A DNA stretch of 64,000 nt from Alphaproteobacteria bacterium (GCA_021774615.1 JAJFIW010000015.1:490-64489); one strand, 5' to 3'; positions 18,362 through 53,474 are shown, counted from the stretch's first letter. Numbers and translations are program-made. Notes: generated from the sequence alone by a model not told the origin.

Positions 18362-18892
18362 CGTTTTACCCCGACATGTTTTTACTGAAATAACTTAGCC
18401 AAGAGGTTACACTATTTTTGCCACGTTACGCACGAATAAAAAGTAAATACCTCCTAAAATACATACAAATAGCCCGTGTCAGTTTTTTTCTGCTAATTTT
18501 TTTTGTATACACATATAAGATAATGCGAGCTTGAGAATACAACAAAGCAAGCAGTAAAACGGGTAATAAGTTTAAAAGCTTGATGGATAGAAAGGGTACG
18601 CCACAAAACAGTATGCTTAAAGGTTTTTTTGGTGGATCCCAACCCGATGAATACACCTCCACCAACACCCCTAAAAGCCTGTTTAATACAACCAATACAG
18701 CTGATTTACGTTTACGTAGTCTAGCGCATGAGCTTTTTCTTCTGGCTCACGAGTTATTTCGTGTCTTGAAGAACAAGTTTATGGCATAAAAAAATTGTAT
18801 TAAAGTTTATTAAGTTACTCTTTGGGCGTCCGATAATAATAATAATGCTTTTGTCCGTCTAGGACAGATCTTTGCCCTGAGGTCTGTATTAA

Positions 18893-18927
18893 TAACGCCG
18901 ATCGGTTCACCCCCCGATCGGCGTTTT
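18893..18927 (+). terminator. Rho-independent terminator (aacgccgatcgg-ttcacccc-ccgatcggcgtt-ttt)
   Basis: 12-bp perfect stem followed by a T-run, just upstream of the nuclease cassette. Confidence 0.5.
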
Positions 18928-19025
18928 TACTTTGTATCTATCCTGTAAATAAGTTAGCATGCGCAATATATTAGATGTAATTTATCTTTCTTTTATTTTC
19001 TTTTCCTCTTTTATGAGGCTCCACT

Positions 19026-19709
19026 ATGACTAAATTACCAAAAAAAAGCCCAGCTTTGGCTGGCTTTCTAGGTGAAGAATTACATAAAGCTTTTAAGCTT
19101 TATTTTTATAACAAACGAACTAGGGTACACCAAAAAGACCCTTTTAAACCTATCCACAAACAGCTAGACACAGCTTTATGCAAACAGCGTAAAAGTACTG
19201 ATATGGCAAGGAAAAACACTATCATATTTGAAGGCTGGACCCAAGATGATCTACGAAAGTGGATTATTGGTTGTGTAAAATGTTTTATAGACTTTTTTGA
19301 AGCTGAAGACGTTACATGGTTTAGAGAAGAATGGTCGTTAAGTACAATCTATATTACGCCAGAAGGTAAGCACATTAAACACCTTGGCGAGCCTGATATA
19401 GTTTTTTACTCGCAGCGACGTAAATCTTACCTAATCCTAGACTTTAAAACTGCCAATAATATTACTGCTTATTTCCAAAAAGACAAAATGCGACTAACCG
19501 AAAAGCTACTGGCTTATGCATTTGGTGCTCGGCAGAAAATATATGCAACTAAAAGGCTGCATATGCATGCAATAACTATTGGATATGTCGTATTTATTCG
19601 TAAGAAAGTAGTTTCTGGAGAAATGCCAGAAATGCATATTTTCGAAGAATTCGTATCCAAACGTCGTCTTAATCGATGGCGTAAAAACCATGTTAAGCAA
19701 TACACTTAA
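19026..19709 (+). CDS. PD-(D/E)XK superfamily nuclease (RecB/Cas4-like fold, no Cys cluster)
   Basis: Motif II/III context GEPDIVFYSQRRKSYLILDFKTANN (PD ... D-x-K). Clean ATG with an upstream GAGG. Confidence 0.55.
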   Translation: MTKLPKKSPALAGFLGEELHKAFKLYFYNKRTRVHQKDPFKPIHKQLDTALCKQRKSTDMARKNTIIFEGWTQDDLRKWIIGCVKCFIDFFEAEDVTWFREEWSLSTIYITPEGKHIKHLGEPDIVFYSQRRKSYLILDFKTANNITAYFQKDKMRLTEKLLAYAFGARQKIYATKRLHMHAITIGYVVFIRKKVVSGEMPEMHIFEEFVSKRRLNRWRKNHVKQYT

Positions 19710-19734
19710 TCTTTCTCTTTTTTAGGAGATTTTT

Positions 19735-21207
19735 ATGGCTTTAACTTATATCCCCAAACCCACTTTTGACCCAGAAGACCCCATATTTTTTAGTGGTTCT
19801 ATGCATACCAGTATAGATAGCTGTATGGCAAACTGGGTCGCAACATATGTTTTAAAACAAACTGAAGACGTCGAAGGCAATGCCCTTACAGGCAGCTATT
19901 TTGTTATTGGTCATGGCTTACATTATGGTGCCGAGATTTATCTCGAGGACTTGCTAAAAGCGATGACAGGCAAAAAGAAAAAATTCAAAAGTAAATTTAT
20001 TGCTGAAGGCATCCGAGTTTACTTTGAAGAAATTGCCCGCCTTGGCGGTACTGAAAAAATTGATTGGCCCAGCAGTTGGGCGCCACTATCTGGCACTATA
20101 GATGCAATGCTAACCGCTGCATTAGAGGTGAATGGAATTACATTTACTAATAAGCAACATGTTGGCAAAGTACGTAGAGCACTTGGTGAGTGGCTTAAAT
20201 GGCTACCAGAAAATGCAGGCATAAATGCCGATGGCAATATGGTATTTGAACTTGCTGAGGATGAGAAAACGCCATTTGATGAAATTGGCGAATCTGGAGT
20301 CCCTGCAATTGATACCATAGAAAAAGCCGCTAAACGCGAACTTTTCTTGAACATATGGCTAATAATGTGGAATAGCCTTAAATGGCCAGAAGATTGGGCT
20401 AGTGAAATAAAAACCGCATGCTCAATTGATGGCTTTTTAACTGCTGACCGCTTTGCTGACTGGACTGCGTGGCAACTGTCACAATTCCCCAAAGCATATG
20501 CAGAGCTAGATGTTATCCCTGTAGCAAATGAGCTTAACCTAGCTCCTTACAACCCTAAAGAAATAACAGGGGTTAAAGTAGTAGAAGCTATTAACTTGTG
20601 GCTAACAGGCACAGCAGACCACGTGGCCCGTGATAATAAAACCAAAAAACTGGTTTTAATTGACTGGAAAACCGCAGCTGATGCAGAAGGCTACAACATA
20701 CCTGGCTTTGCGCAACGTTCGATGCAACTAAACCATTATTACTGGATGATTGAGCGCATCTTGGCTGATACCTCCCACCCTTTGCATAAAAACCTTATTA
20801 AATTAGGTTTTAAAGAAGGTGAGAAGTTTGGAGGGGTGCAATATGTATTGTTTATTAAAAAGACAATGCCTGCAGGTTGGAGCCGCGGCCAATTGGATGC
20901 TCCAGCAGATTGGCCAGTAAAATACAAGCTGGAAGAAACTGATGAAGATGAAACCAGCACCTATCCAAAAATTGTTGCAGCTCCTAGAGCTACAGTAACT
21001 GACGGGATGCGAGATGCTTTCTTGCAAAGGATTTTAGAGGCTGAAGCTGACCTTCGTAACCCCGACAGAATTTTAAAACCATCAGCAGCAGGTGCTTATA
21101 ACTCACCTTGTAGTTTATGTAATGTTAGCGAGTGGTGCACAACTGGTAAAACAGACAACCTTGTTGCCATTACCTACAATATTATCCCTTCGGAAGAAGA
21201 TATGTAA
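19735..21207 (+). CDS. Cas4/AddB-type PD-(D/E)XK nuclease with a 4Fe-4S cysteine cluster (490 aa, large N-terminal domain)
   Basis: DHVARDNKTKKLVLIDWKT (D ... D-x-K), QRSMQLNHYY (QxxxY), and C-terminal SPCSLCNVSEWC (C-x2-C-x5-C), plus an N-terminal Cys (SIDSCMANW). Shine-Dalgarno taggag 8 nt upstream. Confidence 0.6.
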   Translation: MALTYIPKPTFDPEDPIFFSGSMHTSIDSCMANWVATYVLKQTEDVEGNALTGSYFVIGHGLHYGAEIYLEDLLKAMTGKKKKFKSKFIAEGIRVYFEEIARLGGTEKIDWPSSWAPLSGTIDAMLTAALEVNGITFTNKQHVGKVRRALGEWLKWLPENAGINADGNMVFELAEDEKTPFDEIGESGVPAIDTIEKAAKRELFLNIWLIMWNSLKWPEDWASEIKTACSIDGFLTADRFADWTAWQLSQFPKAYAELDVIPVANELNLAPYNPKEITGVKVVEAINLWLTGTADHVARDNKTKKLVLIDWKTAADAEGYNIPGFAQRSMQLNHYYWMIERILADTSHPLHKNLIKLGFKEGEKFGGVQYVLFIKKTMPAGWSRGQLDAPADWPVKYKLEETDEDETSTYPKIVAAPRATVTDGMRDAFLQRILEAEADLRNPDRILKPSAAGAYNSPCSLCNVSEWCTTGKTDNLVAITYNIIPSEEDM

Positions 21208-21222
21208 TATTGTTGTTTAACG

Positions 21223-21251
21223 AAAAAAACCTCCCTTTTGGGAGGTTTTTT
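21223..21251. terminator. Bidirectional terminator (aaaaaaacctccc-tttt-gggaggtttttt) shared by the nuclease cassette and asd
   Basis: Perfect 6-bp GC stem flanked by A7/T6 runs between convergent genes. Confidence 0.6.
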
Positions 21252-25215: not shown

Positions 25216-25320
25216 TCATTCTGCTTGGTGCGTATTGACAAACCTAATTATTAACACTATCTGTATGGCTAATATTCATTTTTCTTTCTCTTTTCATTCT
25301 TTCTCTTTAGGAGATACACA

Positions 25321-25632
25321 ATGCTTACTATTACCCAAGTTCTAATTGCTGTGCCAATTGCAGCACTTATTATGTACTTAATATACAACAGCACCAACTG
25401 GTTCCATATAAAGTCATGGGAAAAGAAGCTTTATAGCAAAAAGTCAATTGCAGTAAAAATTTTTAGTAATAAGGCCATAATTCTGTATTCCATCAAAGAT
25501 GGTTTAATCTTGGAGTACCAAGAGTGCAGTAAATACGGTATTTCCAAGACAGAAAAAACAAAAACTTTTCCCCATTCACAAGAAGATGAAGCTTTAGATA
25601 CATTCTACCAATGGGTTGTTGAATATTTATGA
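25321..25632 (+). CDS. Member 1 of the novel small-protein family (N-terminal TM anchor)
   Basis: Core NKAIILYSI..G ... QWVVEYL aligns with eight other ORFs. Shine-Dalgarno taggagatacaca. Confidence 0.5.
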   Translation: MLTITQVLIAVPIAALIMYLIYNSTNWFHIKSWEKKLYSKKSIAVKIFSNKAIILYSIKDGLILEYQECSKYGISKTEKTKTFPHSQEDEALDTFYQWVVEYL

Positions 25633-25650
25633 ACCTACATTACCGATTAA

Positions 25651-25678
25651 ACCCCTGCCATACGGCAGGGTGTTTTTT
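25651..25678 (+). terminator. Terminator hairpin ccctgcc-atacg-ggcaggg plus T-run
   Basis: Seen in the sequence. A near-identical hairpin recurs at 26516. Confidence 0.55.
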
Positions 25679-25779
25679 GTTTTGCCCCCTATATTCATTG
25701 ACAAACAACACTAAAATATACAAATTGGTAGTATATTTTTGTATTTATCTTCTTTTCTTATCTTTTTTAGGGTTAACCT

Positions 25780-26145
25780 ATGCCTAATCGTGAAAATATT
25801 GTATCGCAATGGGTTAAAGCTCTCCCATCTGATGATTTTAAGAGCCGGAAAATTGTAGCCGATAATGCAGTTCAATTATCTGTTATACAGCATAATCATA
25901 ATTATATGCTCCATGGCTATAGAAAATACTACAGAGTATCGCATTTTGTATGTGGTCAGGATGGTAAAACTATCAATGTAAAATCTAAAGTATTATTTAA
26001 GGCTACCAAAGCTAGCGCACTGTATTGGGAATGGTCAAAATCTATCATGGATAAAACAGGCCGAGTTGATGGCAGTATGTTTAAACATGAAAAAGCCAAG
26101 GTTATAATTATTTCTATAGATACTGACTTGATAAAAGAATATTAG
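25780..26145 (+). CDS. Member 2 of the novel small-protein family (no TM)
   Basis: DNAVQLSVIQ ... FVCGQDGKTINVKSKVLF ... WEWSKSIMDKTGRVDGSMF matches the family core, including the C-terminal R-IDGS-F extension. Confidence 0.5.
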   Translation: MPNRENIVSQWVKALPSDDFKSRKIVADNAVQLSVIQHNHNYMLHGYRKYYRVSHFVCGQDGKTINVKSKVLFKATKASALYWEWSKSIMDKTGRVDGSMFKHEKAKVIIISIDTDLIKEY

Positions 26146-26209
26146 CCCCCACAATTAACTTTACGTTAGTTTTTAATACATCTTTTTTACCTTTCTATAA
26201 GGAATTATC

Positions 26210-26494
26210 ATGAGTAATCCAACAAACAACTGCCAACAGGCAGTAAATGAAGAAGCCGTAAACCGGTGGGAACAACACCTAAGGGGTCTAAAAGACTCCT
26301 CCTTCCTCAAGATAAAAGGAAGAACTGCCATTAGGCAGGTAGTTAAAGACAATAGTAGAAAGACTATATTCTACCTTTATCACATAACTTGTGATGAAAA
26401 CGGAGTATCCAAAGTTGAAGAAATGAACACCTCCTTCAACAGGGAAGAAGCAACCACAAAAATGTGGGAGTGGTGCAGTCTTTACACAAAATAA
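26210..26494 (+). CDS. Member 3 of the novel small-protein family (short form)
   Basis: TAIRQVV ... ITCDENGVSKV ... MWEWCSLY matches the family core. Confidence 0.45.
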   Translation: MSNPTNNCQQAVNEEAVNRWEQHLRGLKDSSFLKIKGRTAIRQVVKDNSRKTIFYLYHITCDENGVSKVEEMNTSFNREEATTKMWEWCSLYTK

Positions 26495-26515
26495 CCCATT
26501 GTGCCATAAACGATT

Positions 26516-26546
26516 AACCCCTGCATACGCAGGGGTTATCTATTTT
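26516..26546 (+). terminator. Terminator hairpin aacccctg-catacg-caggggtt (duplicate of the 25651 hairpin motif)
   Basis: Seen in the sequence. Confidence 0.5.
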
Positions 26547-26648
26547 CTGCCACCCACTTGACATCTACCACAAGAAAGAATACACATTATCTACTGTATA
26601 TATCTTTGTTCTATTTTTCCCACTACACCACCTATTTGGAGGTAATAA

Positions 26649-26984
26649 ATGTTAGACATAGCATACATTGTTATAATATCTGTTATATCGCTAATACTTA
26701 TAATTAACCTGTATAAGAAACATAAGTACAAAAAGGAATTTGAGTACAAAATACGTGAACAATCACCAAATACTGTTAAAATTAGGATAAAAGGCAACAA
26801 CGCTGTTATCCTCTCAATACCTGAGGTAAACAGCTTTAGAAACCCACCAGAAAAGATGGCACTTAACATTGTAACTAATATAGAGGGGAACTTAGTATAT
26901 AATAATTTCCTATACTGGGTAAGTGGCACAGGTGGTATAAATGCAAACTATCGCTTTTGGGAAGCTTGTAGAGCATACCTTTAG
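26649..26984 (+). CDS. Member 4 of the novel small-protein family (N-terminal TM anchor)
   Basis: GNNAVILSI ... FLYWVSG ... FWEACRAYL matches the family core. Shine-Dalgarno ggaggtaataa. Confidence 0.45.
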   Translation: MLDIAYIVIISVISLILIINLYKKHKYKKEFEYKIREQSPNTVKIRIKGNNAVILSIPEVNSFRNPPEKMALNIVTNIEGNLVYNNFLYWVSGTGGINANYRFWEACRAYL

Positions 26985-27106
26985 ATGTTTTTATTTACTC
27001 CCCTTGTAAAAGTAACAACAACGGCTTACACTATATATATAAGCACTACATCGCTCATTATAGAATTTTTATTTTGAGTATTCCTTTTCCACTTCAGGAG
27101 ATCATC

Positions 27107-27217
27107 ATGATTGCTACCGCGATTTTTTTATCAGTAACTTTGGCCTTCTCGGCCTACCTTTACAAGAATGATAAGTTGCAGAATGCAATGCTTCATTCAC
27201 CAAGCCGCCGCCGATAA
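27107..27217 (+). CDS. Possible 36-aa small membrane peptide
   Basis: Strong Shine-Dalgarno ttcaggagatcatc-ATG. One predicted TM helix (MIATAIFLSVTLAFSAYLY). Followed by the 27244 hairpin. Short, so confidence is low. Confidence 0.25.
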   Translation: MIATAIFLSVTLAFSAYLYKNDKLQNAMLHSPSRRR

Positions 27218-27243
27218 TTTTTTGGCGATTCGCTATTAACGAA

Positions 27244-27271
27244 GAAAGCCCTGTCAGATGACAGGGCTTTC
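27244..27271. terminator. Hairpin gaaagccctgtc-agat-gacagggctttc, the terminator at the 3' end of pnp (and of the plus-strand small ORF)
   Basis: 12-bp perfect stem. Seen in the sequence. Confidence 0.5.
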
Positions 27272-27289
27272 ACTATTTAGTCACGTAAC

Positions 27290-29515
27290 TTACGCAGTAC
27301 GACGGCGTGGGCCACGGCTAGATGGACGCTTATCGCCACCACCGTTGCTGTCGTCACCACCATCATCACTACGAGGAGGGCGTGGGCTACCGCCAGTTTC
27401 AACAATCTTAGCAATACGCTCAGTTATTTCTTCTGGTTGGTCTACGCCTTTCATAGTAAGACGAATGCGGCCACGGTCGTTTAGGTTTGTAACCTGCACG
27501 TTAACTGTATCACCATTATCGGCAATATCAGTTACTTTACCGATACGCACGTCTGCCATTTCAGACACGTGCACTAATGCTTCGTGTTTGCCAAGGTAAC
27601 GTACGAAGAAGCCGTAATCTTCAACACGAACAACTAAACCTGGGTAAACTTCGTTTAACTCAGGCTCGCATAAGATTTCGTCGATACGGCGCTTACATTC
27701 GACAATTGCAGCACGATTAACTGCAGTTAAGTAAGCCATACCATCGTCATCGATGTCAATCTGGCAACCAGTTGTTTCGATAAGTTCACGGATAACTTTA
27801 CCACCTGTACCGATAACCTCACGGATTTTGTCGGTTGGGATCTTAATAGTTTCCATACCTGGTGCATGTTCGCTAACTTCCGTACGAGTTTCGGTAATAG
27901 CTTCTTCCATTTTGCCTAGGATATGCATACGACCATCTTTAGCTTGCAATAGTGCTTCTTTCATAATTGCAGCAGTGATAGATGTAATCTTAATATCCAT
28001 TTGCAAAGCAGTAACACCTTTATTAGTACCAGCTACTTTAAAGTCCATGTCGCCAAGGTGGTCTTCGTCACCAAGGATATCTGAAAGAACAGCGTATTTA
28101 TCGCCTTCTTTAATCAGACCCATAGCAATACCAGCAACTGGGCGAACCATAGGAACACCTGCAGCCATCATCGCCATAGAACTACCACAAACAGTCGCCA
28201 TTGAAGACGAACCGTTAGACTCAGTAATTTCAGATACAATACGGATTGTGTATGGGAACTCTTCTTTAGTTGGCAACATTGCGCTTAAAGCACGACGAGC
28301 TAACCAACCGTGGCCAATTTCACGACGACCAGTAAAGCCAACACGACCACACTCACCAACAGAATATGGAGGGAAGTTGTAATGTAGCATAAAGCGGTCT
28401 TTGCTTTCACCGCTCATAGCATCAATAAGTTGCTCATCACGGCCACCGCCAAGAGTTGTTACAACAATTGCTTGGGTTTCGCCACGAGTAAACAATGAAC
28501 TACCATGTGTACGAGGCAACACGTCAACTTCGGTAACAATTGGGCGAATGTCGGTTGTTGAACGTTCGTCGATGCGTTTTTTGGTTTTAAGAACGCTACC
28601 ACGAAGTACGTCAGCTTCAACTTTTTTCAGTTGAGTTTTAACCATTTTATCGTTTGAACCGTCTTCATCAACATATTTTTCAATAGCTTCAGTACGGATA
28701 GCATCTAGAGCTGCTTGGCGCTCTTGTTTAAGGCGAAGTGTGTATGCTTTAGTAATACCTTTAGCAAAATCTTTTTCTAAAGATTTAAACATTTCTTCGG
28801 TACCTTCAGGGCTAATAACTTCGTAGCCTGGTTTTGCAGCAGCTTCAGCGATTTCGATAATACCATCGATAACAACTTGCATTGCTTCGTGACCCGCAGT
28901 TACCGCACCTAGCATTACTTCTTCTGAAAGCTCATTTGCTTCACTTTCAACCATTAGTACGCCTTCACGAGTACCAGCAACAACAAGGTTTAACTCGCTT
29001 GCTTCTAGTTGTTCGAATGTTGGGTTAACAACGTATTCACCGTCAATGTAACCAACACGAGCAGCACCAATTGGGCCCATAAAAGGAGCACCAGACAAAG
29101 TAAGCGCAGCACTTGCAGCAACCAATGAAACAATATCAGAATCGTTTTCTTTGTCAGACTGCAGCACAGTACAAGTTACTTGAGTTTCGTTTTTAAAGTC
29201 GGGGTGGAAAAGAGGGCGAATAGGACGGTCGATCAGACGACATGTCAGAATTTCTCTTTCAGTTTGGCGGCCTTCACGTTTGAAGAACCCACCTGGAATA
29301 CGCCCACCAGCGTAGAATTTTTCAAAGTAGTTAACAGTCAATGGGAAAAAGTCCATCGCTGGGTTACCTTGTTTAGCAAAACATACGTTCGCCATTACTA
29401 CGGTATCACCGTAAGTAACCATAACGCTGCCGTCAGCTTGACGAGCAATTTTACCTGTTTCGATAGTCAACTGGCGGCCTTGCCAGTCAATTTGTTTTTT
29501 GTATACTGTAAACAT
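27290..29515 (-). CDS. pnp: Polynucleotide phosphorylase (PNPase) with a Gly/Asp/Arg-rich C-terminal tail
   Basis: Two RNase PH domains, then KH and S1 domains. Typical N-terminus MFTVYKKQIDWQGRQLTIETGKIARQADGSV. Confidence 0.9.
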   Translation of the reverse strand: MFTVYKKQIDWQGRQLTIETGKIARQADGSVMVTYGDTVVMANVCFAKQGNPAMDFFPLTVNYFEKFYAGGRIPGGFFKREGRQTEREILTCRLIDRPIRPLFHPDFKNETQVTCTVLQSDKENDSDIVSLVAASAALTLSGAPFMGPIGAARVGYIDGEYVVNPTFEQLEASELNLVVAGTREGVLMVESEANELSEEVMLGAVTAGHEAMQVVIDGIIEIAEAAAKPGYEVISPEGTEEMFKSLEKDFAKGITKAYTLRLKQERQAALDAIRTEAIEKYVDEDGSNDKMVKTQLKKVEADVLRGSVLKTKKRIDERSTTDIRPIVTEVDVLPRTHGSSLFTRGETQAIVVTTLGGGRDEQLIDAMSGESKDRFMLHYNFPPYSVGECGRVGFTGRREIGHGWLARRALSAMLPTKEEFPYTIRIVSEITESNGSSSMATVCGSSMAMMAAGVPMVRPVAGIAMGLIKEGDKYAVLSDILGDEDHLGDMDFKVAGTNKGVTALQMDIKITSITAAIMKEALLQAKDGRMHILGKMEEAITETRTEVSEHAPGMETIKIPTDKIREVIGTGGKVIRELIETTGCQIDIDDDGMAYLTAVNRAAIVECKRRIDEILCEPELNEVYPGLVVRVEDYGFFVRYLGKHEALVHVSEMADVRIGKVTDIADNGDTVNVQVTNLNDRGRIRLTMKGVDQPEEITERIAKIVETGGSPRPPRSDDGGDDSNGGGDKRPSSRGPRRRTA

Positions 29516-53026: not shown

Positions 53027-53108
53027 TCGTGCTCTACCCATTTTGTCAGGAAAAAGTTGTACTGCTAACCATAAAGTATAAGGAAGTTTAAAAGGAGTAA
53101 AGAATAAC

Positions 53109-53474
53109 ATGGTCAGTGCTATAAACATTGCTGCAACGGGGCTATTTAAAACCCAGCAAGATTTTAACAAATCTGCGGTAAGTTTTATTAATAGTTTTAC
53201 ACCTACATTAGCTGCTGCATCTGGCGATGTAGGCGCACTAGAGAATATTACCCAAGTACCAACAGACCCACAAGTAAACCCGTTTGCAGGCAACCAAATT
53301 AGTGGCGATACACTTATTGCAGCTAGTACTGCACAACTATTTAGCCCTGATGCTACAGACCCAGCTCAAACGTTGGGGAATCTTATTTTAGATCAAACCT
53401 CATTTTTAGCTAATATTTATTCTTTTAGTAGCATTAGCGAAACAGAGCAAGAGCTATTAAATATTCTAGCTTAA
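53109..53474 (+). CDS. Hypothetical protein whose N-terminus resembles the flagellar rod/hook N-terminal motif
   Basis: VSAINIAATGLFKTQQDFN resembles the -A-TGL-AQQ- N-terminal helix of Flg rod proteins, but the NNIAN box is absent. GGAG Shine-Dalgarno. Confidence 0.35.
   Translation: MVSAINIAATGLFKTQQDFNKSAVSFINSFTPTLAAASGDVGALENITQVPTDPQVNPFAGNQISGDTLIAASTAQLFSPDATDPAQTLGNLILDQTSFLANIYSFSSISETEQELLNILA

What the first reader, a model, noticed from the sequence alone, without database searches (positions are those of the whole stretch)
19026..21207. Terminator-insulated two-gene cassette encoding two PD-(D/E)XK nucleases, one with a Cas4/AddB-type Fe-S cluster. Candidate novel defence or recombination module
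The 227-aa ORF carries GEPDIVF ... LILDFKT (PD ... D-x-K). The 490-aa ORF carries VLIDWKT, QLNHY (the QxxxY motif of RecB-family nucleases) and a C-terminal C-x2-C-x5-C plus an N-terminal Cys. This is the four-Cys arrangement that ligates the 4Fe-4S cluster in Cas4/AddB/Dna2-type nucleases. It also has a large unassigned N-terminal domain of about 280 aa. The pair is co-oriented with 25 nt between the genes, and each gene has a GGAG Shine-Dalgarno site. It sits on the plus strand between two minus-strand housekeeping genes (hbd, asd), bounded by strong hairpin terminators at 18893 and 21223. No cas1/cas2, CRISPR array, helicase, recombinase or phage genes are nearby. It therefore does not look like a canonical CRISPR adaptation, AddAB or phage exonuclease-SSAP module. 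A paired nuclease-only operon is the kind of architecture seen in recently described anti-phage systems.
Basis: partly seen in the sequence, partly recalled or inferred. Interest (0 to 1): 0.7.

Follow-up and report, generated by a model that had tools for sequence, protein, structure and literature searches.

The report
Two lineage-specific RecB/Cas4-type nuclease genes
Two adjacent genes encode DNA-cutting enzymes of a well-known superfamily, one with an iron-sulfur "staple". They are stably inherited chromosomal genes of a small group of uncultured marine bacteria, not a mobile anti-phage cassette, so this is a modest curiosity.

Summary
ORF1 (19026-19709, 227 aa) and ORF2 (19735-21207, 490 aa) are intact, co-oriented and 25 nt apart. 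They lie between hbd and asd, with hairpin terminators at 18894 and 21224.

- **ORF2** passes Pfam PDDEXK_1. All four RecB motifs and the 1+3 cysteines (C30, C459, C462, C468) are invariant in its homologs. The "unassigned 280-aa N-terminal domain" is really a Trp-rich insertion of about 180 aa (residues 75-255) inside a Cas4/AddB/AdnA-type nuclease.
- **ORF1** is a Cys-less RecB-like nuclease. It matches no family model itself, but 9 of its 23 homologs hit PDDEXK_1.

The defence or cassette reading is not supported:
- There are no PADLOC, phage, plasmid or IMG/VR relatives and no flanking repeats. Composition is normal.
- ORF1 sits at the hbd-asd locus across a whole clade of uncultured marine Pseudomonadota, often without ORF2.
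- ORF2 occurs in only one subclade. In one relative it occurs without ORF1, next to deoC.
- Both genes evolve like their housekeeping neighbours (omega about 0.1; ORF2 68% identity against hbd 78% and asd 62%).

The most likely role is helicase-independent processing of single-stranded DNA ends in repair or recombination. That role is inferred, not shown. Both structure models were poor. Interest is low to moderate: a new variant of solo Cas4-like nucleases.

The parts
18580..18789 (+). Upstream small coiled-coil ORF. It is context, not part of the nuclease pair, and appears frameshifted in this window.
   Evidence: Homologous 89-105 aa ORFs lie between hbd and ORF1 in L003, L004, L008, L012, L013 and L016. 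In the window the match continues in another frame after about 18755. Pfam gives only coiled-coil-type hits below threshold.
18894..18925 (+). Intrinsic-terminator-like hairpin (12-bp stem, 8 G-C pairs) followed by a T run. It most likely terminates the small upstream ORF.
19015..19018 (+). Shine-Dalgarno-like GAGG, 7 nt before the ORF1 start.
   Evidence: Read directly from the sequence.
19026..19709 (+). ORF1, 227 aa. A Cys-less RecB-like PD-(D/E)XK nuclease: motif I G16/H20, E101, motif II P123-D124, motif III D139-x-K141, and a motif IV variant K160-x3-Y164.
   Evidence: ORF. The listed residues are invariant in 23 homologs. 9 of 23 homologs hit Pfam PDDEXK_1, best E 1.9e-6. hhalign against Cas4-like proteins gives E 9e-5 and probability 59%. 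omega is about 0.10.
19724..19728 (+). Shine-Dalgarno AGGAG, 6 nt before the ORF2 start.
   Evidence: Read directly from the sequence.
19735..21207 (+). ORF2, 490 aa. A stand-alone Cas4/AddB/AdnA-type PD-(D/E)XK nuclease with four conserved Cys.
   Evidence: Pfam PDDEXK_1 scores 29.7 bits against a cutoff of 22. hhalign against 320-aa Cas4-like proteins gives E 2e-16 and probability 98.7% over residues 249-473. A core profile hits the AdnA nuclease domain at E 4e-4. omega is 0.09-0.13.
19822..19935 (+). ORF2 residues 30-67: the first cluster cysteine (C30) and RecB motif I (G59-x3-H63-x3-E67).
   Evidence: Invariant. Collinear with C21 and G45..E53 of P0011 in a weak hhalign match (E 0.01).
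19957..20499 (+). ORF2 residues 75-255: a Trp-rich insertion with no detectable homolog (invariant W111, W115, W153, W156, W208, W212, W217, W221, W243).
   Evidence: No Pfam hit when scanned alone. An exhaustive profile search of 1.84 billion representatives found no protein covering it outside the family.
20602..20739 (+). ORF2 residues 290-335: the catalytic core. Motif II is G292/D295, motif III is D310-W-K312-T313, and motif IV is Q331...Y335.
21109..21138 (+). ORF2 C459-x2-C462-x5-C468: the three C-terminal ligands of the predicted Fe-S 'iron staple'.
   Evidence: Sequence. Invariant. Aligned to CxxCx5C of P0011/P0012 and of AdnA.
21224..21251 (.). Bidirectional terminator-like hairpin (A6-CCTCCC-TTTT-GGGAGG-T6), shared by ORF2 (+) and asd (-).
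   Evidence: and the sequence.

Best explanation
ORF1 and ORF2 are two functional, vertically inherited chromosomal genes of a narrow clade of uncultured marine Pseudomonadota. Each encodes a RecB/Cas4-family PD-(D/E)XK nuclease.

- ORF2 is a 'solo' Cas4/AddB/AdnA-type enzyme. One N-terminal and three C-terminal cysteines would hold an Fe-S 'iron staple'. H63, D295, D310 and K312 would form the Mg2+ site. A lineage-specific insertion of about 180 aa, rich in Trp, is added to the fold.
- ORF1 is a smaller Cys-less paralog-like enzyme, with H20, D124, D139 and K141.

Most likely mechanism (inferred):
1. ORF2 acts without a helicase of its own. It threads a free single-stranded, probably 5'-ended, DNA tail into its buried active site and cuts it.
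2. This serves DNA-end processing for repair or recombination.
3. In the subclade where the genes are adjacent and probably co-transcribed, ORF1 may process the other strand. That would echo the split between the Fe-S nuclease domain (AddB/AdnA, 5' strand) and the Cys-less nuclease domain (AddA/AdnB, 3' strand) in AddAB/AdnAB. Unwinding would come from a separate helicase.

Shown: gene integrity, family assignment, residue conservation, synteny, purifying selection, and absence of mobile or defence signatures. Inferred: Fe-S binding, substrate and polarity, the repair role, and any ORF1-ORF2 cooperation.
For: Family assignment
- ORF2 passes the Pfam PDDEXK_1 threshold.
- The ORF2 profile aligns with Cas4-like 320-aa proteins at E 2e-16, including CxxCx5C.
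- The core profile hits the Fe-S nuclease domain of AdnA at E 4e-4.
- All catalytic and Cys residues are invariant in ORF2 homologs, and the catalytic residues are invariant in ORF1 homologs.
- 9 of 23 ORF1 homologs hit PDDEXK_1, and hhalign links the ORF1 family to Cas4-like proteins at E 9e-5.

Vertical inheritance
- The order membrane protein, hbd, small ORF, ORF1, (ORF2), asd, ETF-QO, rlmN is kept in L004, L008, L013 and L017.
- Window against L004 identities are ORF2 68%, hbd 78%, asd 62% and ORF1 46%.
- omega is 0.09-0.13 for ORF2 and 0.10-0.11 for ORF1, against 0.135 for hbd in one pair (L008-L013); other hbd pairs give 0.06-0.20.
- GC3 is within the range of the window's genes.
- ORF2 presence tracks hbd similarity, which fits a subclade.
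- ORF2 and deoC are adjacent in both L001 and L004, with matching divergence of 63% and 60%.

Not mobile or a known defence system
- PADLOC gives nothing significant.
- Neither protein has phage or IMG/VR relatives, and ORF2 has no plasmid relatives.
- There are no flanking repeats.

Literature
- Solo Cas4 genes evolve vertically like ordinary cellular genes and are enriched in small-genome environmental microbes (PMC5704561).
- The Fe-S AdnA nuclease handles the 5' strand, with His/Asp/Asp metal ligands (PMC8789073).
- The helicase-less Cas4-family enzyme ACE1 cuts only threaded ssDNA (PMC12094033).
Against: - No biochemical or genetic data exist.
- Both AlphaFold models were poor (pLDDT 47.7 and 45.7). 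The fold, the channel and the role of the insertion are therefore unverified.
- ORF1 itself hits no family model.
- ORF1-ORF2 profile similarity is weak (E 1e-3, probability 19%).
- ORF1 exists without ORF2 in six distinct loci, and ORF2 without ORF1 in one. That argues against obligate cooperation.
- I could not check whether these genomes lack AddAB or RecBCD.
- ORF2 is extremely narrow in distribution: one 50%-identity cluster among 1.84 billion representatives. That is unusual for a core repair function.
- In L004 a Schlafen-like/DUF2075 helicase gene is inserted right after ORF2. This would also fit a variable, defence-prone spot.
Confidence: 0.5

Rival explanations
1. A novel two-nuclease anti-phage or anti-plasmid defence system. 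One or both nucleases would degrade invading DNA, with the Fe-S enzyme acting on ssDNA replication or entry intermediates.
For: - Nuclease-only operon with no helicase.
- Very narrow distribution.
- ORF2 is present or absent at the same locus among related genomes.
- In L004/L017 a Schlafen-group-3/DUF2075 helicase gene sits directly downstream of ORF2.
- Some Cas4-family enzymes do work in defence, for example ACE1 with pAgo (PMC12094033).
Against: - No PADLOC hit for either family.
- No integrase, transposase, tRNA or repeat boundaries.
- Neighbours are housekeeping genes in conserved order.
- omega is about 0.1, and ORF2's identity to its L004 homolog is about as high as that of hbd and asd.
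- ORF2 presence follows phylogeny rather than being patchy.
- Neither protein has relatives in phage or IMG/VR collections, and ORF2 has none in plasmids.
- No partner sensor or modification gene that could tell self from non-self.
Confidence: 0.15
2. Two functionally unrelated nucleases that are neighbours only through genome compaction. ORF1 would belong with the conserved upstream small coiled-coil gene or have a stand-alone role. ORF2 would be an independent solo Cas4-like enzyme that travelled with deoC.
For: - ORF1 is found with the small ORF but without ORF2 in L008, L012 and L013. It is also found in a different context, next to a metallophosphoesterase-like gene and an EAL gene, in L007, L010 and L018.
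- ORF2 is found with deoC but without ORF1 in L001/L002.
- ORF1 diverges much faster than ORF2 between the window and L004 (46% against 68%).
Against: In all six contigs of the subclade that carries ORF2 at this locus, it lies 25-81 nt downstream of ORF1 on the same strand. In the window no terminator-like hairpin lies in that gap. Co-transcription is therefore likely and has been kept over dS > 0.8.
Confidence: 0.25
3. A domesticated remnant of a phage or mobile-element recombination exonuclease (phage Cas4-like exonuclease).
For: - ORF2 hits PHROG 1218 'exonuclease' at E 6e-8 over 65 residues.
- The low-confidence ORF1 model gives weak Foldseek hits to phage-type exonucleases, namely 3k93, RecE and lambda exonuclease, at E 4.5e-3 to 4e-2.
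Against: - The PHROG match covers only the universal motif II-IV core.
- No SSAP, integrase or other phage gene is nearby.
- tblastn of ORF1 and ORF2 against 50,697 phage records, and pattern scans of 2.9 million IMG/VR contigs, found nothing. tblastn of ORF2 against 72,556 plasmid records also found nothing.
- Composition is typical of the host.
Confidence: 0.08

Closest known systems
Solo Cas4-like nucleases / Pfam PF12705 (PDDEXK_1) stand-alone proteins (Hudaiberdiev et al. 2017, PMC5704561)
   Same: - Stand-alone RecB-like nuclease with 1+3 cysteines.
- Not linked to CRISPR-cas.
- Found in small-genome environmental microbes.
- Vertical inheritance and purifying selection like ordinary genes.
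   Different: - ORF2 is 490 aa, against about 200-320 aa, because of a Trp-rich insertion of about 180 aa between motif I and the beta-sheet core. The insertion has no homolog.
- It does not hit PF01930 (Cas4 proper).
- In one subclade it is paired with a second, Cys-less RecB-like nuclease.
Nuclease domains of AddAB / AdnAB (AddB and AdnA carry Fe-S; AddA and AdnB are Cys-less)
   Same: - The closest solved relative by sequence is the AdnA nuclease domain (E 4e-4), with motifs II-IV and CxxCx5C aligned.
- Same His/Asp/Asp-x-Lys site.
- The pair reproduces the combination of one Fe-S nuclease and one Cys-less nuclease.
   Different: - No UvrD-like helicase or helicase-like domain in either protein.
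- The proteins are separate and not always co-encoded.
- No evidence of a Chi-like control.
ACE1, Argonaute-associated Cas4-family enzyme (PMC12094033)
   Same: A helicase-less Cas4-family protein with an iron staple. Shown to cut only ssDNA that is threaded through a narrow channel. This is the best experimental analogue for how ORF2 could act alone.
   Different: - ACE1 is about 278 aa, is encoded with a pAgo and works in defence.
- No Argonaute was found among the genes scanned around the pair.
- No sequence similarity beyond the superfamily core was demonstrated.
Mitochondrial and eukaryotic RecB-like nucleases Exo5, Dna2 and MGME1
   Same: Same superfamily. Exo5 and Dna2 carry the same Fe-S arrangement and act on 5' ssDNA ends (my own knowledge).
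   Different: Only sub-threshold matches: Pfam Exo5 at E 0.27 and MGME1 chains at E about 0.9.

Membership tests
PD-(D/E)XK nuclease superfamily, RecB-like branch (Pfam PF12705 PDDEXK_1) | Score above the Pfam gathering threshold | tested here: met
   ORF2 scores 29.7 bits against a cutoff of 22, E 7.9e-7, residues 260-468. ORF1 itself has no hit, but 9 of its 23 homologs match, best E 1.9e-6.
PD-(D/E)XK nuclease superfamily, RecB-like branch (Pfam PF12705 PDDEXK_1) | Motif II Asp and motif III (D/E)-x-K conserved across homologs | tested here: met
   D295, D310 and K312 of ORF2 are invariant in 6 sequences. P123-D124, D139 and K141 of ORF1 are invariant in 23 sequences.
PD-(D/E)XK nuclease superfamily, RecB-like branch (Pfam PF12705 PDDEXK_1) | Motif IV Q-x3-Y in the helix after motif III | tested here: met
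   Q331 and Y335 of ORF2 are invariant. ORF1 has a variant, K160-x3-Y164, which is invariant and aligned to DQLxxY of Cas4-like proteins.
PD-(D/E)XK nuclease superfamily, RecB-like branch (Pfam PF12705 PDDEXK_1) | alpha-beta-beta-beta-alpha-beta core fold | tested here: inconclusive
   AlphaFold models had mean pLDDT 47.7 (ORF2) and 45.7 (ORF1). Foldseek on ORF2 found nothing at E < 1. For ORF1 nearly all of the listed weak hits were PD-(D/E)XK nucleases, with TM 0.16-0.32.
Cas4 (CRISPR-associated, PF01930/DUF83) | Match to the Cas4/DUF83 model | tested here: not met
   No PF01930 hit at E <= 1 for either protein. The Cas4 structure 4ic1 scores only E 0.19 with the core profile.
Cas4 (CRISPR-associated, PF01930/DUF83) | Four cysteines, one N-terminal plus C-x2-C-x5-C, conserved | tested here: met
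   C30, C459, C462 and C468 are invariant in the ORF2 family. The C-terminal three align with those of P0011/P0012 and AdnA. ORF1 has no conserved Cys. Fe-S binding itself cannot be tested here.
Cas4 (CRISPR-associated, PF01930/DUF83) | Encoded next to cas1/cas2 or a CRISPR array | tested here: not met
   No repeat array in the 64-kb window. The scanned neighbours are hbd, asd, ETF-QO, rlmN, RNR and PNPase, plus proteins with no family match. No cas gene appears in any related locus.
AddAB / AdnAB helicase-nucleases | SF1 (UvrD-like) helicase or helicase-like domain fused to the nuclease domain | tested here: not met
   No helicase or P-loop family hit in either ORF. The lengths of 227 and 490 aa are too short.
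AddAB / AdnAB helicase-nucleases | RecB-like nuclease domain with an Fe-S cluster, related to AddB/AdnA | tested here: met
   The core profile (ORF2 family plus P0011/P0012) hits AdnA chains 7sjr_A and 6ppu_A at E 4-5e-4 over motifs II-IV, with CxxCx5C aligned in a second sub-threshold segment. The similarity covers the domain only.
Known anti-phage defence systems (PADLOC-DB v2) | Match to any defence-system protein model | tested here: not met
   No hits for ORF1 or ORF2 at E <= 1. Among 23 ORF1 homologs only single-member hits at E >= 0.003 to the candidate family PDC-S02.
Phage exonuclease-SSAP recombination modules | Exonuclease encoded next to a single-strand annealing protein, in a phage context | tested here: not met
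   There is only a partial hit to PHROG 1218 exonuclease (E 6e-8, 65 residues). No SSAP or phage gene is adjacent. Neither protein has phage or IMG/VR relatives, and ORF2 has no plasmid relatives.

The most novel reading that the evidence does not exclude
The pair is a 'split', helicase-less counterpart of AddAB/AdnAB. A Fe-S nuclease would take the 5' strand and a Cys-less nuclease the 3' strand, with unwinding supplied in trans. This would have replaced the canonical RecBCD/AddAB end-resection machine in a streamlined lineage of uncultured marine bacteria. The Trp-rich insertion of ORF2 would serve as a new DNA-fork or partner-binding module.
Probability: 0.12. Interest if true: 0.6.

Novelty: new variant of a known kind. 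Interest (0 to 1): 0.3.

Why it matters
If the inferred role is right, a clade of abundant but uncultured marine bacteria processes DNA ends with a minimal pair of nucleases, with no helicase-nuclease machine involved. The pair would also be a natural example of the Fe-S and Cys-less RecB nuclease domains existing as free proteins, which is relevant to how AddAB and AdnAB were assembled in evolution.

The insertion of about 180 aa is a domain with no relatives among 1.84 billion representative proteins.

In practice the main value of this work is negative. The finding should not be counted as a candidate defence system on present evidence.

Tried and rejected
1. **Structure route.** AlphaFold2 on ORF2 with 6 sequences and on ORF1 with 3 sequences gave pLDDT 47.7 and 45.7. 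Foldseek against the PDB was non-significant for ORF2 and only weakly suggestive for ORF1.
2. **Direct sequence searches of the PDB.** Searches with ORF2, with its family profile and with the ORF1 family profile gave only chance hits. A profile that included intermediate Cas4-like sequences was needed to reach AdnA.
3. **Family and defence libraries.** NCBIfam had no match for either protein. PADLOC had none of significance.
4. **Mobile-element origin.** tblastn of both proteins against phages, tblastn of ORF2 against plasmids, and IMG/VR pattern scans for both families were all empty.
5. **Cassette boundaries.** A search for direct or inverted repeats around the pair found only short chance matches.
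6. **Non-coding RNA.** An Rfam scan of the window, which covers the 660-nt hbd-ORF1 spacer, found only one tRNA far away.
7. **ORF1 and ORF2 as close paralogs.** Rejected. Profile-profile similarity is limited to motifs II-III (E 1e-3, probability 19%).
8. **The 399-aa gene upstream of ORF1 in L005 and the 561-aa gene next to ORF1 in L007 as diverged ORF2 equivalents.** Rejected. Neither has a PDDEXK hit or the Cys pattern. By eye the 561-aa protein carries metallophosphoesterase-like motifs instead.
Full report
**1. Observation**

ORF1 is 19026-19709 (227 aa) and ORF2 is 19735-21207 (490 aa). Both are on the + strand with 25 nt between them.

- All quoted motifs are present. ORF1 has GEPDIVF and LILDFKT. 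ORF2 has VLIDWKT, QLNHY, C459-x2-C462-x5-C468 and C30.
- The flanking minus-strand genes are hbd and asd (NCBIfam equivalogs).
- Two 12-bp-stem terminator-like hairpins lie at 18894-18925 and 21224-21251. The region holds 8 such sites against 2.5 +/- 1.4 in shuffles.

Minor corrections:
- ORF1's ribosome-binding site is GAGG, not GGAG. ORF2's is AGGAG.
- The downstream hairpin is bidirectional and shared with asd.
- The upstream hairpin follows a separate small coiled-coil gene. That gene is conserved in relatives and appears frameshifted here.

**2. What the proteins are**

ORF2:
- It passes the Pfam PDDEXK_1 threshold (29.7 bits against 22). It has a partial PHROG exonuclease hit. NCBIfam and PADLOC give nothing.
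- Its family is tiny. A word-indexed search of 5.8 billion proteins gave six clusters at 57-100% identity.
- An exhaustive HMMER profile search of 1.84 billion representatives gave one full-length cluster plus two weak hits. Those two hits are ordinary 320-aa Cas4-like proteins and match only the core.
- Profile-profile comparison with those two proteins gives E 2e-16 and probability 98.7% over residues 249-473, including the CxxCx5C motif.
- The N-terminal 70 residues align collinearly, though weakly (E 0.01). C30 and G59-x3-H63-x3-E67 fall on the first Cys and motif I.
- A combined core profile reaches the Fe-S nuclease domain of mycobacterial AdnA (E 4e-4). It then reaches Cas4 SSO0001 (E 0.19) and MGME1 (E about 0.9).
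- All four RecB motifs and all four Cys are invariant in the family.
- So the part with no assignment is not an N-terminal domain. It is an insertion at residues 75-255. The insertion has nine invariant tryptophans and matches nothing.

ORF1:
- It hits no model itself. Its family of 23 clusters at 35-49% identity keeps G16, H20, E101, P123-D124, D139-x-K141 and K160-x3-Y164 invariant.
- 9 of the 23 members hit PDDEXK_1, best E 1.9e-6.
- The family profile aligns with the Cas4-like proteins at E 9e-5.
- It has no conserved cysteine.

Both AlphaFold models were poor, so the fold searches carry little weight.

**3. Genomic and evolutionary context**

The window is filled with housekeeping genes: RNR, DUF4175, a redoxin, hbd, asd, ETF-QO, rlmN, PNPase, miaB, phoH, lnt, NAD-GDH and trpS.

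Related contigs come from marine metagenomes and MAGs labelled only as unclassified Pseudomonadota. A census of 18 fetched loci gives four situations.

| Situation | Loci | Notes |
|---|---|---|
| ORF1 then ORF2, same strand, 25-81 nt apart, after hbd and the small ORF | window, L003, L004=L017, L006, L015, L016 | six distinct contigs |
| ORF1 alone, followed directly by asd, otherwise the same synteny as the window | L005, L008=L009, L013=L014 | only 71-94 nt of spacer in L008 and L013, so no ORF2 remnant |
| ORF1 in a different conserved context | L007, L010=L011, L018 | next to a 561-aa metallophosphoesterase-like gene and an EAL gene, near a VirB4/TraG-like P-loop gene |
| ORF2 alone, followed by deoC | L001=L002 | the same ORF2-deoC neighbourhood also exists in L004 |

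- Genomes with ORF2 at this locus have hbd 72-78% identical to the window. Genomes without it have hbd 60-63% identical. ORF2 presence therefore tracks phylogeny.
- Between the window and L004 the identities are ORF2 68%, hbd 78%, asd 62%, the membrane protein 53% and ORF1 46%.
- Nei-Gojobori estimates on the less saturated pairs give omega of 0.09-0.13 for ORF2 and 0.10-0.11 for ORF1. One comparable hbd pair (L008-L013) gives 0.135, and other hbd pairs give 0.06-0.20.
- GC3 of both genes lies within the window's range.
- No flanking repeats were found. The only tRNA lies about 41 kb away, and no integrase turned up among the genes scanned.
- Neither protein has relatives in 50,697 phage records or 2.9 million IMG/VR contigs. 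ORF2 has none in 72,556 plasmid records.

**4. Interpretation**

These are real, constrained chromosomal genes and not a mobile cassette. This matches what Hudaiberdiev et al. reported for solo Cas4. They found vertical inheritance, selection close to the genomic median, enrichment in small-genome environmental microbes, and a function described as 'uncharacterized defense or repair' (PMC5704561).

The chemistry can be inferred from relatives:
- In AdnA the metal ligands are a motif-I His and two Asp. The Fe-S subdomain sits at the fork, and the domain cuts the 5' strand (PMC8789073).
- The helicase-less Cas4-family enzyme ACE1 cuts only ssDNA threaded through a narrow channel (PMC12094033).

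I therefore propose the following:
- ORF2 is an end-requiring ssDNA nuclease, probably directed at 5' ends, that works in repair or recombination.
- ORF1 may handle the other strand in the subclade where the two genes are adjacent.
- The pairing of one Fe-S nuclease with one Cys-less RecB nuclease mirrors AddB/AddA and AdnA/AdnB, but without any helicase domain.
- All of this is inference. Because the two genes also occur independently, cooperation cannot be obligate.

**5. Rivals**

- **Defence.** This is not excluded. ORF2 varies in presence at the locus, and a Schlafen-like helicase is inserted next to it in L004. But the reading lacks every positive signature that I could test.
- **Phage-remnant origin.** This rests only on a core-motif PHROG hit.
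- **Functional independence of the two genes.** This is a serious alternative, which I put at about 0.25.

**6. Novelty and score**

ORF2 is a new variant of the solo Cas4-like / PF12705 nucleases, because of its orphan insertion and its Cys-less partner. ORF1 defines a small uncharacterised RecB-like family.

Neither result would strongly surprise a specialist, since PD-(D/E)XK nucleases are notoriously diverse. Interest is 0.3. The most novel reading still open is a split, helicase-less AddAB analogue that replaces canonical end resection in this lineage. I give that about 0.12 probability, and it would merit about 0.6 if true.

Noticed in passing
window 18580-18810 (+): The small coiled-coil ORF between hbd and ORF1 is conserved as an intact 89-105 aa gene in L003, L004, L008, L012, L013 and L016. 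In the window its homology continues in a different frame after about 18755 (…LAHELFLLAHE / …LEEQVYGIKKLY*). This suggests a frameshift, either a pseudogene or an assembly error. The + strand terminator at 18894 probably belongs to this gene.
   Followed up: partly
window 25250-27290: An AT-rich stretch of about 2 kb (GC about 0.33, against 0.41 for the whole window) lies between rlmN and pnp. It has no ORF over 121 aa. It holds four small + strand ORFs (103, 121, 94 and 111 aa) that are only weakly similar to each other (best pair E 0.003 in a database of just these four ORFs) and have no Pfam match. The origin is unknown.
   Followed up: partly
L004 9543-11516 (-), same in L017 7293-9263: In MAG UBA6503 a 657-aa Schlafen-group-3/DUF2075 helicase gene (Pfam PF09848, E 2e-79) lies between ORF2 and deoC, convergent with ORF2. 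It is absent from the window. It could mark this spacer as a spot where accessory, possibly defence-related, genes insert.
   Followed up: partly
L007 1-5692, L010 1-5693, L018 2-1297: In the most distant ORF1-bearing genomes, ORF1 is divergently adjacent to a conserved 561-565 aa protein. By eye that protein has metallophosphoesterase-like motifs (GDWH, NHDEH, GHxH), but it has no Pfam hit. It follows a cluster that starts with a VirB4/TraG-like P-loop ATPase and a Pro-rich 576-642 aa protein. A nuclease next to a phosphoesterase hints at a DNA-processing pair there.
   Followed up: no
window 21160-21204 (ORF2 residues 476-490): After the Cys motif, ORF2 ends in a strongly conserved acidic tail, (A/Q)I(T/K/Q)Y(N/D)(I/L)(I/P)P(S/P/D)EEDM in five of six family members. 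It might be a docking peptide for a partner protein.
   Followed up: no
window 53106-53468 (+) and L001 2942-3382 (+): The Q/N-rich 146-aa ORF just upstream of ORF2 in L001 has a homolog in the window (47% identity, E 2e-29). In the window it lies between tsaB and the 1619-aa NAD-glutamate dehydrogenase gene. This shows that L001's ORF2-deoC block sits at a different, rearranged chromosomal position.
   Followed up: partly
L005 14-1213 (+): A 399-aa protein with no Pfam match and no homolog in the window replaces the hbd/small-ORF side upstream of ORF1 in this contig.
   Followed up: no
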